A DNA stretch of 64,000 nucleotides from Trypanosoma brucei. Its lineage: Eukaryota. Made by a program: the position numbers. The stretch covers positions 192,001 through 256,000 of the forward strand of contig CH464492.1 in assembly GCA_000002445.1 (NCBI GenBank), read 5' to 3'. Shown here one piece after another: positions 18,001 through 27,000 of this stretch. Position 1 is the first letter of the stretch, and each line of letters starts with the position of its first letter.

Positions 18001-21000
18001 AAGCAGATTCTAAAACCATCGAAGAAACAAGTAATTAACATAAAAGGCGTCGCGGCCGCACATCTAGCGAAGCGCATAAGCTAAATAATACATGAAAAGG
18101 AAGTTGTGTTTGGCGCCCCCAAATTAATGTATAAAACGGCGTCAAAGCAAAATGATATCGGATGCTTGCAAACAAAAAAGGCCCAATCGTACTCGCGAGA
18201 AGCAGTAACTTTAGTTTTTTTATTGTATAAGTGGCAATAAGATATTCTGTCACTCGAAATAGAGCAAATTAACGGCTGTAAAGGTTTATAAGTTAGATAT
18301 AGAATGGTTTGGATGATTTCTAGAGGTAAGTTTCCTGTATCATAGTAGATAGAATCAAAAAATAGAAGATAAAGAAAAATAAATTAAAATCGATAAGAAA
18401 AAAGAAATACTAAGTTTACAGAGAGTAAAGCAGCCTCAAATACAGGGATAAACAGAAAAAAGCGGAAAATGCATTGTCACCGAGTTACAAACAGCAGACC
18501 TGTTTAAACGGCTACCCCAGCGCTGCCGCATATTGACTCTTTTCTTTCACCTTTTCGAACTCTAATAGCTATCTAGATGCTGAAGGTGTTCGCTCTCATT
18601 TTAGTGTCCGCGTTTGGCGTAAACAAGCAAGCGAATACAGCGGCCTTAGCCAACGCAGTGGAGTTCAGACTGCTTTGCAACCTTTACAACCTAAACAAGC
18701 AAAAGGACATGGTAAAAAAAGCAAAAAACGTTCGCACCAGCTGCAGAGACCGTCTCTGAGCTCGAGAAATTAGACGTGTCGACGTCTACTGATTCTTTCT
18801 TCGAAATGCAGGACGGGTACTACACAGATACCGGCGGCAAACAGAACGGGGAAGGATTGCGACAATGGGCAGACAAGAATAAAGCTATAGTCTCAACCGA
18901 AGTCGACGGCTTAAAACCCTATGCACGAATAAGCTTGGAAAGGGAGAGGCTGCGGGCAAATGCTGTAATAAAACGGCTTCTAAGGAGGGCGCAGGGGCTG
19001 ACGGGTAGCTACACATCAAATTTCCAAGCAGTAACAGGCAACGAAACAGCAGCACTACAAAACTGGCGGAAGCAGCTTCTGGCAATGGAAAAACGGCGTT
19101 CAATCCGGACTATTTCAAGAAAGAACGAGCTGACATCTGCGGTGGCATAACAGCCGGACACAACGACGTCAGCAGTTCCATAGCAGCCGATCTGATTTGC
19201 CTGTGCACCAGACAAGGGGTCTTAGCCACAAACGACTGTGGTAACGGCTTACAAGGACAACTCGACGACGGCGGCAGCAAAGAAGGAGCTGCCCCGGCGC
19301 TGTGGAGAGCAATCGAACAACACTGCGCAACATTTCCAAAGCCAAAACTTATAACGAGTGAATTAATTCACCAAAAACTAGCGGCATTCTCAGCGCAAAT
19401 TGGAAGGGGAAACACAGACACGACACAGGCGAACGAAAGATTCACGCTCGGAGCAACTACAGGTTCAGATTGCGACGGCGGCGACGGCAAAATATGCGTC
19501 AATTATCACCTGCAGCTTGGAAAGGGCAAGCCGGGGATACCGTGGGTAACAGCATTGGAAGAGGCGGCCACCTACCTAAAAAATGCCGAGGAAGTGGCAT
19601 TAGCAGCGGAAAAAGCAAAGCAGACAATAGAAATTCTTACAGAACAGGCTAGGAATGCTTACATCGAGGCAGCATTCGAAGCAGCCGAACCACGCAAAAC
19701 ACAGCAAGCGAACAACAACCCTTCAACAAAAAACCCAACTGAGGAAGACTGCAGCAAACACCAATCAAGCGAGAAATGTACAGCCCCCTGCAAATGGAAC
19801 GAGAATTCAACTGACAAAAGCAAGGGTGAATGCTCATTAGACCCAGTAAAAACAGCAAAACAAGCAACCCGAGCAGCAGGAACAGAAGACAAGAAGGAGG
19901 AAGAGAAATGTAAAAGAAAATTAGAGGATGCCTGCAAGAAAGACACTAGATGCAAATGGGAAGATAACAAATGCTTACAAAGATTCCAGTTTCCTCGTCA
20001 ATAAGAAATTGGCTATGATCAATGCTGCAATTTCAAATTTGGTAGAATTCTAAGCAATGCAAGGATATTTTTCAAAAATTATGAAACTTGGCATGCTTAG
20101 AGAATTTACTAAAATTTGATATATTTTAAAGTCTTTTCATGGTAATGTAAAATTTTGAGAATTTTGAAAAAAAATAATTTTTTTATTTTTCATTAATCTG
20201 TACGCACTTCAATTGATCTACATAAACGTTCATGGTGAATACTTTCTACAGCTATACGTTTCTTACCCTCACCATTCGCCACTTTTTTCTTCCTGTGGGA
20301 CATGGATAACCAAGCATTGTTGAGGAAGCGCCCTTTGAATATTGACTTACATCATTTGAGGAAAATCTTACTGGTTGTCATCCAAATGTGTCGCATGTAG
20401 TCAGTGGATATTTAGCATGAAAGTGACCTTCCTCTCTTTATACATTTTGGGGTTATAAGTTTCTTCGTGTCTATAGCGGGAACCGGAATTGCCGTTGGCA
20501 AGAAGACTGCCCTTGGGAAGTTGGTAAGCTTAACACCAAAGTATATATCTTCCCCTTTCGGACTGTCTACTTCATGCTCAGACCTAAGTTTACTCAAAGA
20601 CAGACACTGTAACAGGTGAATCGATGTTTCTTTTCATTTCTCTTTTAGCTCATTTCGCCTATCAGAGCCACGTGCTTGTCCATGTGCTTCTTGGAGGTGC
20701 ATTGTTAGATATTTCTTGTGCGCCTTAGTGCACGAGAGGAGCCAGTGGTGTGATTTCAAGGAGTCTTTCCTCACACTCCCTCTTTACAGTGATTGCATTT
20801 TGGTGGTGTGTGCTTGTATGCCATACTAGTGCACACCATGACATGTAGATGATCTCAAACCTGCTACATGCAAACTCTCTACGATGGTTTTCTGTGTGAC
20901 CTTGATTCCTCTGCTGTTTGTGTTTCGGATCCTCTCTCTGATCTCTCGTATTCTTCTCACCTTTTGGCGTGTCATGCTCAGTCTCTCTTCTTCTCTTTCT

Positions 21001-24000: not shown

Positions 24001-27000
24001 AGAGCTCACCGGACGAAAACCAGCTTACTGTGGTTGTAGCTTACATTCTACTGTGTCTCGTATTACTCTCTCTACAAACCTCTCCTTGAGTTTACAGATG
24101 GTGCAAGTGAGTGTGATGGTTTGGAAAGATAACATACACTTGGCCGGTTTGTTGGGTTTGAGTAGTGATACAATAGCAACATGCTTCCACTTCTCCGGCA
24201 CCCGGTGTCTCTGTAGGCTACAGTTGAATTGCTTGAGGTCACATATTTCTTGCTGTAGCTTCCTAATTGCTTTAACTAACCGTTCACAATGTATATTGTC
24301 CTTACTGATGGAAGTGCCTGAAGACAGTTCCTTCAGTACTCTCTCAAGTTCTGCCATCGTTGTTGGTGCGAATACTCCGCTCATTCGATAAGGTATACTC
24401 ATGGAAGGAGCATCTGAAGTTTTCGTCAGCCGCTCTCTATACATCTGTGCTAGTTTATTAGTTTGCTCTCTGCGTGTTAGAGGGTGACTATTTACTACCA
24501 GAACAGAAGATATCAGTGGTCTCGGTGCATATCTGGGATTTACTAAATTCCAACATTTTGTATCGGTCACTGACATCTTCGAGACATTTTCCTTCTATTG
24601 TTGTATGGAAGTTTCAGCAAGAACCTTCCTTCTCTTGTATATAATTGCATCTCTATATGCTTCTCATTTGTACACTCCCTTATTTTTGCGTCACGTTATG
24701 TCAATTCTCGTGTGCAGAAGGGTGGCGATACACCCTTACCTTTATTTTTGATTTTCTTTGCTGCTGTGCGAATGCCTTTAGTCACTGCTTCAGTCATGGC
24801 ATCCACATTCTTTCCAGACTTCCTTAATTTTTTCAACATTTTCACTTCACACAATTTTCTAAACTCACGCCAATTTGCTTTATTCCAAGCATACAGTACC
24901 CTTCGTAGCTTTGAAATGGCAGTCGTTTCTACACCAATGCCAATGCACACCTCAAATATTATCCAGTAGTGCCCACTATCTGAACTGAGACTTGCTTCAC
25001 ATCTTGTGACCTCGCATTATCTGTACATCCTAACGTCTGGAAACGACATGGCTTCCGTGTGAGGAATTCTTGTTGGGGTGCCATCATTTGCAATCTTGAT
25101 ATCATTTTGTGGACACCAGTCTACAATGCATTCTCCCGCTGTATCATTTGAGTGAAGCGGGTCCCATGACTCGTGATGTGCGTTGTATAGGATCATATCA
25201 CCAGTGTTCTAGTTTAGCTCTTAAGGCTATCAAGCGTGGAGGTAGTGAAATCTTCCTTCTGTTGGAAGTAAACTGACTTTATAGTTAACATTGGATTAGT
25301 TGAACACATCAGTGTTGCCGAGACTCTTTTCGGCAGTTCCTCCTCCTTTGGACCTTGGAAGACTCCCGTGCTATCTTTGACAAAAATTGATACCCCAACA
25401 CCATGTGGAAAGCCTTCCATTCCCATGTGTTGTTATCCACTGATTTTTAATGCATAATATTATTCTGCTGCCAAGTGAGTCTCCTGCGATAGACAGAAGA
25501 CTACCATATTCTCGTGGAGCTTCTTCCATGAGACAATCCGTTTCACCTGAGAAAGACCCCCAGCATTCCACTGGGCTCCACAAATGATGGGACCGGGATT
25601 CTGTTCCACATTTCCGCTAAGTAGTATAAGCCTACGTATCCTAATCGAGGCGCGCTCGGACGTGCAGAGGAGCAGTCTCACATATTTCTTCACTCCAGAG
25701 TGCTGATGTTTCTTCTTGCTCCTTTTCTGGTTGTCAAAATCCTGTTGCCCTCCCAAATCCTGTCTGAAAAAGTATGATTCGGACACTTGGCTTCCTTCGG
25801 GATGGAGCAATAAATCCTGGAACCACGATGAGATGGCCGGCGTCACCAGGGAGATTTAACATTTTCGTCAAAAGGTGTTAAAATATATCAATTTTAGTAA
25901 GTTTCATCAAATTCATAAAATTGAGAAAAAAGTCTCTGAATGCTACCAAACTCATAAAAGCAGCAGCAATCATAGCAAATTTCTGATTTACAATAGAACT
26001 GGAATCTTTGCACTCTTTTCAATCCCATTTCAAATCCGGAGATTTGCAATCTTTATCTAATTTCCCTTTGCATTTCTCTGTTGTTTTTTTCTGCAGCTCT
26101 CTCTGCTCCTTGGCTTTGCTTCTCTTCCGGATGTGCTTCGCATGTGCCTTCAGCTTCTGTCCCATCCCATTTGCAACCCTTATCTTCACAGTTCTTCTTT
26201 GGTTTGTGTTGCTTGCACTCCTCCTGCTTTTGTGCATTATTGCTGGTGTTTCTACATTCTGCTGCAGGTTTTTCTCCCTTTAAAGCTTGATCTATCAGTG
26301 TTATCTCCAGTTTTTTTAGTTCTGTCGTTATGGTCTCTGAGTCGTCTTCTACAAAGCTCTTAAGCTGCTTGCTTATGGTGTTTAGTTCCTCTGCCGTGAT
26401 GTCATATGTCCCTTCTTGGTCGGCGTCTCCCAAGTCTTTCTTTGGGTTTTTGGTCTCTGGTATGTTCGGCTCGTCGCCAGTTCCTAGTTTGTTTATGGCG
26501 GCAAGTTTGTCTAGGGCCCCGCCACGTAAGTTGTTTAATTTTTCTTGCGGGATATCGTTGTATTCCCTGATCGGGCTCCCCGTCGGTAAGCCGCCGTTTA
26601 TGTTTGCGAAAACAGACGTCGAAGTATCCGACGTATGGATGAACAGCAAGCCGCCCATTGCTGGTATCGGTCCCGCGGCCGCCGCACTGTGCCCGAAGCC
26701 GTCCGTATTGTCGGAGGACAGCAGCTTGCAGCTGTCGTTGGTTGCTCTGTGAGCGGTGGTTGTCCAGTCGGCTGCTTTGGGAATGTTGGCTTCTGCGTTT
26801 TGAGCCGTTTTAATGTCCTTTGTTCCTAGCGTTGTTCTCCAGGCTCCGTCGACGAAGCATTCTTCCAGGTGGTCTGCTGTGGCGAGTGTGTTGCCGTCGT
26901 CTTGTGTCACGCAGAACTGACCGTTTTTGCTGCCTTTTGTGGCGAAAAGCAATTCGCCAAATTCGTCTATTCTGTCTGCAGCTAGAGCCGCTGCACCAGC

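What the first reader, a model, noticed from the sequence alone, without database searches (positions are those of the whole stretch)
20050..25895. DIRE inserted immediately after a VSG 3'UTR 16-mer; array polarity switches exactly at the element
The exact 16-mer (25875..25890, minus strand) ends 24 bp from the DIRE 5' signature (CCCTGG, 25846..25851). All VSGs to the left (553..20052) are on the + strand. The DIRE and all VSGs to its right are on the - strand. So a convergent strand-switch lies between 20052 and about 20283. Retroposon insertion sites at VSG 3' ends, and retroposons at polarity boundaries, are candidate recombination breakpoints.
Basis: partly seen in the sequence, partly recalled or inferred. 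Interest (0 to 1): 0.5.

Follow-up and report, generated by a model that had tools for sequence, protein, structure and literature searches.

The report
Dead retroposon at VSG array turnaround
A 5.65-kb degenerate ingi-type retroposon (DIRE) fills the gap between two tail-to-tail trypanosome surface-antigen (VSG) pseudogenes; this is a real but ordinary feature of Trypanosoma brucei subtelomeres.

Summary
The exact VSG 16-mer is at 25875..25890 (-). The retroposon head CCCTGG ends at 25851, 23 nt away. Every VSG to the left is on +, and every VSG to the right is on -.

The element is a full-length, heavily decayed DIRE of about 5.65 kb. It is colinear with the intact ingi in the same window at 32-38% amino-acid identity, with 13 stops and at least 6 frame changes.

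New here: its 5' flank matches the published ingi6-type target signature TTTTN5A^A(+11 nt) 6 of 6 in the exact register. That motif lies in the conserved block just after the 16-mer. The 5' junction therefore looks like an original insertion junction, not a breakpoint.

The 3' end lies at about 20177-20204, not about 20283. It directly abuts the inverted, truncated 3' flank of the left VSG. No target-site duplication rises above chance. Only the two flanks next to the DIRE are truncated and lack a 70-bp repeat.

The polarity switch therefore sits within about 30 nt of the DIRE tail. Whether the DIRE caused it is unresolved, and synteny could not be tested. Retroposons are already known to be enriched in subtelomeres and strand-switch regions, so interest is low.

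The parts
18776..20004 (+). Left VSG pseudogene (VSG_L), last gene of the plus-strand array. Its C-terminal ORF is 19555..20004.
   Evidence: Pfam VSG_B (weak) for 18776..19150 and Trypan_glycop_C for 19555..20004.
20005..20172 (+). VSG_L 3'UTR and flank, with a degenerate 16-mer TGATATATTTTAAAGT at 20117..20132. The flank is truncated at profile position 123 of 304. It has no downstream conserved block and no 70-bp repeat.
   Evidence: nhmmer with a profile of 11 other VSG 3' flanks gives HMM 8-123 = 20058..20172. The 70-bp core map shows none between 17337 and 29098.
20173..20204 (.). A/T-rich junction of about 30 nt where the polarity switches. On the minus strand it reads GTACAGATTAATGAAAAATAAAAAAATTA. 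It is either the A-rich tail of the DIRE or a short remnant of a minus-strand VSG flank; this is not resolved.
   Evidence: GC is 3-17% here, against 33-50% from about 20200 onwards. There is a weak minus-strand profile hit at 20203..20188 = HMM 96-111 with E 1.2. It is not significant against shuffles, 114/300.
20177..25851 (-). Full-length degenerate ingi-related element (DIRE), about 5.65 kb. The 5' end is exact at 25851. The 3' end is approximate (20177-20204).
   Evidence: tblastn of the window's ingi ORFs is colinear at 32-38% identity. The stitched translation has 13 in-frame stops and at least 6 frame changes. GC is 43.6%. A T. equiperdum paralogue is colinear from 25855 to 20502, and the distance from there to its own A-rich stretch is about the same.
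25773..25851 (-). 79-bp 5' signature (Pr77 hallmark) shared by trypanosomatid retroposons, starting CCCTGG.
   Evidence: 55 identical positions over the first 79 nt against the ingi head at 42424. Beyond about 80 nt there is no DNA similarity. Hallmark as described in PMC2323293 and PMC1874656.
23403..25852 (-). Decayed coding region for the 2A-like motif (LLSGNVEQNPGP), the AP-endonuclease-like domain and the reverse transcriptase.
   Evidence: Alignments to ingi residues 11-819. The ingi ORF carries Exo_endo_phos and RVT_1 domains. The 183-aa ORF 24025..24576 is 44% identical to a 'Tcoingi protein' of T. conorhini and 33% identical to the window's ingi.
25852..25873 (-). Target-site signature. 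On the minus strand it reads TTTT (25873..25870), GACGA, A (25864), then the nick position, then AATGTTAAATCT (25863..25852, the expected 12-nt duplicated segment).
   Evidence: 6/6 match to the ingi6 consensus TTTTxxxxxA^Axxxxxxxxxxx given in PMC3820030. The chance per position is 0.0011-0.0045 in the window and 0.0078 within VSG flanks.
25875..25890 (-). Exact VSG 3'UTR 16-mer TGATATATTTTAACAC of the right VSG.
   Evidence: Its role in VSG mRNA stability is described in PMC5698767.
25855..27353 (-). Right VSG pseudogene (VSG_R, A-type) with its 3'UTR and flank. The flank is cut at profile position about 101-104 by the DIRE.
   Evidence: Pfam Trypan_glycop and Trypan_glycop_C on 26053..27021 and 26982..27353. 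The flank profile gives HMM 6-101 = 25941..25855. It is 90% identical to T. brucei VSG 1125.4914 and 82% identical to VSG 1238.

Best explanation
The feature is an ancient, inactive, full-length retroposon of the ingi clade: a TbDIRE, probably of the extinct ingi6-like lineage.

Insertion (inferred): it integrated by target-primed reverse transcription into the conserved block that follows the VSG 3'UTR 16-mer. That block (consensus TTTTTGATAAAAATGT) itself carries the endonuclease target TTTTN5A^A. The first base of the element lies exactly 12 nt after the predicted nick.

Decay (shown): the element has since decayed and now has 13 stops and at least 6 frame changes.

Present arrangement (shown): it fills the whole space between the 3' flanks of two convergent VSG pseudogenes. 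The array's polarity switch therefore lies in a roughly 30-nt A/T-rich stretch at its 3' tail (20172..20204).

The 3' junction (inferred): the expected 12-nt duplication is missing, as is the remaining ~200 nt of the right VSG's flank, including its 70-bp repeat. The left VSG's flank is also cut short. The tail junction is therefore most likely not the original insertion junction. It is more likely a later illegitimate (microhomology or A/T-tract) joining that fused the DIRE tail to an inverted VSG cassette end. The DIRE is a passive marker of that boundary; there is no evidence that it has a function.

What is shown: the identity, strand and 5' junction of the element, the truncation of both flanks, and the position of the switch. 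What is inferred: the insertion mechanism, and the order and cause of the rearrangement.
For: - Colinear homology to the ingi ORFs on the minus strand.
- 79-bp head signature.
- ingi6 signature 6/6 in register, against ingi4 signature 2/10. The genuine ingi at 42424 shows the reverse: 7/10 for ingi4 and 2/6 for ingi6. Signatures are from PMC3820030.
- The same TTTTN5AA motif sits at the homologous place in 5 of 11 other VSG flanks.
- Closer to Tcoingi-named and T. congolense proteins (44% and 61% identity) than to Tbingi (33%).
- Flank-profile map: 13 flank hits (12 reach profile position 297 or beyond, one ends at 230); only the two that touch the DIRE stop at HMM 123 and 101.
- No 70-bp repeat between 17337 and 29098.
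- No TSD above chance.
- Literature: 60% of T. brucei retroposons are subtelomeric, and strand-switch regions have the highest retroposon density (PMC2323293). ingi and RIME recombine and cause rearrangements (PMC2854126).
Against: - The 3' end cannot be fixed by homology. The 3'UTR shows no significant similarity to the T. equiperdum paralogue.
- A weak minus-strand flank-like match at 20203..20188 falls in the register expected for a resumed flank (HMM 96-111). It hints that the DIRE may have inserted next to a tail-to-tail junction that already existed. It is not significant (E 1.2; shuffles 114/300), and no A-tail precedes it.
- The two flanks are truncated at nearly the same profile position (123 against 101-104). 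A random later breakpoint does not explain this.
- The target motif is part of the conserved VSG flank, so it is not fully independent of the fact that the element lies next to a 16-mer.
- The subclade assignment has no phylogeny behind it.
Confidence: 0.6

Rival explanations
1. The switch came first. Two VSG cassettes were already joined tail-to-tail about 40 nt after their 16-mers, possibly through the self-complementary AAAATTTT-type motif in the flank. The DIRE then inserted canonically about 20 nt from that junction. Its duplication and tail have since decayed beyond recognition in A/T-rich sequence. On this reading the DIRE is unrelated to the origin of the switch.
For: - Both flanks end at almost the same profile position: 123 for the left VSG, and 101-104 plus a possible 96-123 remnant for the right VSG.
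- The only profile hit in 20160..20520 is on the minus strand and in the register expected for a 9-12-nt duplication.
- The candidate AATGAAAAATAA matches the expected duplication at 8/12.
Against: - The remnant is not significant (E 1.2; 114/300 shuffles reach the score).
- An 8/12 match is expected about 0.9 times by chance in the stretch.
- No A-rich tail lies between the DIRE body and the putative duplicated segment.
- The space available (about 25-31 nt) barely holds a tail, a 12-nt duplication and the rest of the flank.
Confidence: 0.2
2. The switch was made by homologous recombination between two inverted DIRE copies. That would invert a chromosome segment and leave a chimeric DIRE whose 5' and 3' flanks come from different insertion sites.
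For: - The DIRE has no matching duplication.
- The intact ingi at the second convergent switch in the window also has none.
- The literature reports retroposon-mediated rearrangements (PMC2854126).
Against: - The 12 nt after the tail (TTATTTTTTTTC) do not start with the A expected of an ingi6-type duplication, as read directly from the sequence.
- DIRE copies are very diverged. The T. equiperdum paralogue is only 74% identical over 500 nt and not alignable elsewhere. That makes them poor substrates for homologous recombination.
- There is no second DIRE and no reciprocal junction in the window.
Confidence: 0.1
3. Assembly artefact: the A/T-rich junction at 20172..20204 wrongly joins two contigs of a repetitive subtelomere.
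For: The junction lies in a 3-17% GC low-complexity stretch next to repeated sequence. Subtelomeric VSG arrays are hard to assemble (general knowledge; also noted in PMC2854126).
Against: Nothing in the sequence itself indicates a join: there are no Ns and no abrupt duplication. The DIRE is complete from head to A-rich end, and its length fits the paralogue.
Confidence: 0.05

Closest known systems
TbDIRE (degenerate ingi/L1Tc-related elements of T. brucei). About 73 copies per haploid genome are reported. Eight of them, called 'TbDIRE2', belong to the ingi6 subclade (Bringaud et al. 2006, 2009, 2011; PMC3820030).
   Same: Length is about 5 kb. It has the 79-bp 5' signature and a decayed endonuclease/RT coding region. 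It is preceded by the TTTTxxxxxA^A signature and lies in a subtelomere.
   Different: GC is 43.6%, below the reported TbDIRE mean of 48.7%. No duplication is recognisable. Membership of the eight-copy ingi6 group is not shown by phylogeny.
Tbingi, the active 5.25-kb ingi4-subclade retroposon. One copy lies in this window at 42424..47680.
   Same: Same domain order and the same 79-bp head. Both sit with their 3' end facing an oppositely oriented VSG cassette, and both lack a duplication.
   Different: Identity is only 32-38% at the amino-acid level, and there is no DNA similarity beyond the head. The upstream target signatures differ: ingi4 7/10 for the ingi and 2/10 for the DIRE.
Retroposons at strand-switch regions and centromeric domains of T. 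brucei (PMC1868937; PMC2323293).
   Same: A DIRE or ingi lies between oppositely oriented gene clusters.
   Different: Here the switch is between silent VSG cassettes in a subtelomeric array. There is no AT-rich centromeric repeat array. The gap is only the element itself.
RHS genes as insertion hot spots for ingi and RIME (Bringaud et al. 2002; known to me from the literature, not read here).
   Same: A conserved host sequence carries the endonuclease target, so insertions recur at the same place in a multigene family.
   Different: For VSG 3' flanks only this single insertion is documented here. Recurrence is untested.

Membership tests
ingi-clade non-LTR retroposon | 79-bp 5' signature starting CCCTGG | tested here: met
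   55 identical positions over the first 79 nt against the ingi head, with an exact CCCTGG start.
ingi-clade non-LTR retroposon | Single multifunctional coding region in the order endonuclease, RT, RNase H-like region, C2H2 | tested here: met
   Colinear tblastn to ingi residues 11-1071 and to the C-terminal ORF residues 295-366. The Pfam domains were established on the ingi ORFs.
ingi-clade non-LTR retroposon | A-rich 3' tail | tested here: inconclusive
   An A-rich stretch, AATGAAAAATAAAAAAA, lies at 20194..20178 on minus. It cannot be told apart from VSG-flank sequence.
ingi-clade non-LTR retroposon | 12-bp target-site duplication | tested here: not met
   The best candidates match 8/12, and about 0.9 such matches are expected by chance. 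Old elements often lose this feature (PMC3820030).
DIRE | About 5 kb with the coding region destroyed by stops and frameshifts | tested here: met
   About 5654 bp, with 13 in-frame stops and at least 6 frame changes in 999 aligned codons.
ingi6-subclade TbDIRE | Preceded by TTTTxxxxxA^A plus 11 nt | tested here: met
   6/6 at positions -22..-12. Chance is 0.001-0.008 per position.
ingi6-subclade TbDIRE | RT groups with Tvingi and Tcoingi in a phylogeny | tested here: inconclusive
   Identity is 44% to a T. conorhini 'Tcoingi protein', 61% over 39% of the query (about 71 aa) to a T. congolense fragment, and 33% to Tbingi. No reference set and no tree were available.
Tbingi (ingi4) | High nucleotide identity to the 5.25-kb consensus, and the upstream ingi4 signature | tested here: not met
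   Only 36 nt of DNA similarity. ingi4 signature 2/10.
VSG 3'UTR | Conserved 16-mer TGATATATTTTAACAC downstream of a VSG C-terminal domain | tested here: met
   Exact at 25875..25890. The ORF 26053..27021 carries VSG domains.
Convergent strand-switch region | Genes on both sides point towards the junction, with nothing oppositely oriented in between | tested here: met
   Shown by Pfam, the flank profile and the 70-bp repeat map.

The most novel reading that the evidence does not exclude
The conserved block just after the VSG 16-mer (TTTTTGATAAAAATGT) may be a built-in endonuclease target for ingi6-type retroposons. VSG cassette 3' boundaries would then have been preferred landing sites. The A-tails of the elements, together with the self-complementary A/T motif of the flank, would have seeded the tail-to-tail joins that set array polarity. 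Both convergent switches in this window lie at a retroposon 3' end.
Probability: 0.15. Interest if true: 0.5.

Novelty: already known. Interest (0 to 1): 0.22.

Why it matters
The finding adds little to what is known. DIREs and ingi are known residents of T. brucei subtelomeres and are enriched at strand-switch regions.

The one point worth a genome-wide check is that the endonuclease target of this extinct lineage coincides with the conserved VSG 3' flank. If that coincidence recurs, it would link retroposon site preference to the architecture and rearrangement of the silent VSG archive.

The locus is also a useful checkpoint for assembly validation at an A/T-rich junction.

Tried and rejected
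1. Synteny. Exact-protein look-ups of six window ORFs, both VSG and retroposon, found nothing. Homology searches with the stitched DIRE, the 183-aa DIRE ORF and the VSG_R ORF found no orthologous locus. The only close hits were VSG entries without contigs. Presence or absence in other isolates therefore could not be tested.

2. Fixing the 3' end by comparison. There is no second DIRE in the window. The T. equiperdum paralogue (L002) is colinear only to window 20502, and its 3'UTR shows no significant similarity.

3. TSD by direct comparison. The result is at chance level. The motif occurs elsewhere in the window at the expected chance number.

4. A minus-strand flank remnant after the DIRE. 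It is suggestive in register but not significant.

5. The T. congolense element (L001) as a positive control for the target signature. Its head is too decayed to place the junction.

6. Rfam. There were no hits in the window, and in particular no model matched the HDV-like ribozyme reported in Pr77.

7. An inverted duplication of the two VSGs around the DIRE. Only the usual C-terminus and 3'UTR homology was found, 74-79% over about 185 nt. The N-terminal domains are of different types (B and A).

8. Key papers not held: Bringaud 2009 (PMC2756862) and Berriman 2005.
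Full report
**What the window is.** The window is a Trypanosoma brucei-type silent VSG array.
- Pfam finds VSG N-terminal (A- and B-type) and C-terminal domains in ORFs along the whole window.
- The ORF next to the finding is 90% identical to T. brucei VSG 1125.4914 and 82% identical to VSG 1238.

**Check of the observation.**
- The 16-mer TGATATATTTTAACAC is exact on the minus strand at 25875..25890. It is the only exact copy in the window. In all, six matches with up to 2 mismatches were found, against 0.18 expected.
- The retroposon head CCCTGGTGACGCCGGCCATCTC runs 25851..25830 on minus. 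23 nt lie between the 16-mer and the element.
- A second head at 42424 (+) opens a full-length ingi of 5257 bp and 52.5% GC. Its ORFs carry endonuclease, RT and C2H2 domains.

**Identity of the element.**
- With the ingi ORFs as probes, 25852->22674 on minus is colinear with ingi residues 11-1071 at 26-38% identity. 20723->20505 matches the C-terminal ORF.
- At the DNA level only the head is similar: 36 nt by BLAST, and 55 identical positions over the first 79 nt.
- The stitched translation has 13 in-frame stops and needs at least 6 frame changes.
- This fits the published definition of a DIRE: a long (about 5 kb), degenerate, vestigial ingi-related element that shares only the 79-bp signature with ingi (PMC3820030; PMC2323293).

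**Polarity map.** Three independent maps agree.
- Pfam domains are on + up to 20004 and on - from 26053.
- A profile built from 11 other VSG 3' flanks hits six flanks on + (ending 2407, 5690, 9751, 13786, 17352, 20172). It hits nine flanks on - (from 25941 onwards).
- 70-bp repeat cores are on + at 2393-17337 and on - at 29098, 33001, 35752, 48040, 54583 and 61852.

The right-hand side is not uniformly on the minus strand. A 12-unit 70-bp repeat array (39569..40522) and the ingi (42424..47680) are on +.

**The 5' junction.** PMC3820030 gives target signatures for ingi subclades.
- ingi6 type: TTTTxxxxxA^Axxxxxxxxxxx, where the 12 nt after the nick become the duplication.
- Tbingi/RIME (ingi4): AxxxxxxxTxxxGTxGGxTxxx^xTxTxxTxxxxx.

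Read on the minus strand, the DIRE is preceded by ...AACAC C TTTT GACGA A^AATGTTAAATCT|CCCTGG.
- This is a 6/6 match in the exact register, against 2/10 for the ingi4 signature.
- The true ingi in the window behaves the other way: 7/10 for ingi4 and 2/6 for ingi6.
- The motif occurs at 0.0011-0.0045 per position in the window and at 0.0078 within VSG flanks. A random breakpoint would therefore rarely show it.
- The motif belongs to the conserved block after the 16-mer (consensus TTTTTGATAAAAATGT). It is present at the homologous place in 5 of 11 other flanks.
- The right VSG's flank follows the flank profile up to 4 nt from the element (HMM 6-101).

I conclude that the 5' junction is an original target-primed insertion junction.

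The lineage assignment has some support. The 183-aa ORF is 44% identical to a T. conorhini protein named 'Tcoingi protein', and 61% identical over 39% of the query (about 71 aa) to a T. congolense fragment. It is only 33% identical to the window's ingi. No phylogeny could be made.

**The 3' end and the switch.**
- The last homology to ingi ends at 20505. The decayed reading frame stops at 20412.
- Base composition stays DIRE-like (33-50% GC) down to about 20200, then drops to 3-17%.
- A T. equiperdum paralogue (L002) is colinear to window 20502. It reaches its own A-rich stretch 330 nt later, which projects to about 20172 here.
- The 3' end is therefore about 20177-20204, not about 20283. The element is about 5.65 kb.
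- On the other side, the left VSG's flank matches the profile from 20058 to 20172 (HMM 8-123) and then stops.
- Nothing else lies between. The switch is inside about 30 nt.

**No duplication, and two truncated flanks.**
- The expected AATGTTAAATCT is not found after the tail. The best matches are 8/12, and about 0.9 such matches are expected by chance.
- Of the 15 VSG flank hits in the window, 12 reach profile position 297 or beyond, into the 70-bp repeat (one more ends at 230). Only the two that touch the DIRE are cut, at positions 123 and 101. No 70-bp repeat lies between 17337 and 29098.
- The only other profile hit near the junction is a weak minus-strand match at 20203..20188 to positions 96-111. 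That is the register expected if the right flank resumed after a 9-12-nt duplication.
- That hit is not significant (E 1.2; 114 of 300 shuffles score as well). Comparable 19-mers occur by chance elsewhere. No A-tail precedes it.

**Interpretation.**
- Firm: the DIRE's identity, its strand, its canonical 5' junction in a VSG 3' flank, and the coincidence of its tail with the polarity switch.
- Inferred: the tail junction is secondary. I favour a later illegitimate join of the A-rich tail to an inverted, truncated VSG cassette end.
- The main rival is a tail-to-tail VSG junction that already existed and into which the DIRE inserted about 20 nt from the centre. This rival explains why both flanks stop at nearly the same profile position.
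- Homologous recombination between inverted DIREs is less likely, because the copies are very diverged. The identity to the T. equiperdum paralogue is 74% over 500 nt and undetectable elsewhere.
- Misassembly cannot be excluded from the sequence alone.

**Context.**
- In T. equiperdum a related DIRE lies in reverse orientation inside a VSG array of uniform polarity, and not in a post-16-mer block. A DIRE in an array does not by itself imply a switch.
- The second convergent switch in this window (47680-48040) also lies at a retroposon 3' end, and that ingi also lacks a duplication.
- The literature already reports that 60% of T. brucei retroposons are subtelomeric and that strand-switch regions have the highest retroposon density (PMC2323293).
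- It also reports DIRE and ingi between directional gene clusters (PMC1868937), and that ingi and RIME recombine and cause rearrangements (PMC2854126).

**Verdict.** The feature is a known kind of object in a known kind of place. The only mildly new point is that the ingi6-type target motif coincides with the conserved VSG 3' flank, and that needs a genome-wide test.

Noticed in passing
window 42424..47680 (+), with flanks 42244..42423 and 47681..48040: A full-length Tbingi of 5257 bp and 52.5% GC, with two long ORFs. The ingi4 target signature upstream matches 7/10. There is no target-site duplication after its poly(A). Its 3' end faces a minus-strand VSG cassette, which makes a second convergent switch at a retroposon tail.
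   Followed up: partly
window 39569..40522 (+): A 12-unit 70-bp repeat array on the plus strand, with no VSG behind it before the ingi. A divergent polarity switch lies between 37575 and 39569.
   Followed up: partly
window 31175..31834 (-): An ORF with a weak Galactosyl_T hit (E 7.5e-4). It is probably a glycosyltransferase pseudogene fragment inside the VSG array.
   Followed up: no
L002 (T. equiperdum CZPT02001908.1) 4806..about 10190 (+), with a partial second 3' copy at 10295..11150: A related DIRE, 74% nucleotide identity over the first 500 nt. It lies in reverse orientation inside a minus-strand VSG array; the flank hits at 1624-1313, 11577-11284 and 14361-14080 are all on minus. Its 3' part is tandemly duplicated across an assembly gap.
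   Followed up: partly
window about 25570..25605 (-) and about 42630..42665 (+): Both the DIRE (LLSGNVEQNPGP) and the ingi (LLSGDVEENPGP) keep a 2A-like NPGP motif in front of the endonuclease domain.
   Followed up: no
window: VSG 3' flanks after 2181, 5519, 9526, 13474, 16936, 33281, 36091, 48338, 51471, 54768, 62160: About 300 nt downstream of each VSG are conserved up to the next 70-bp repeat. They contain a near-self-complementary A/T motif (AAAATTTTAAAA-like) about 35-45 nt after the 16-mer. Both flanks next to the DIRE end at that place.
   Followed up: partly
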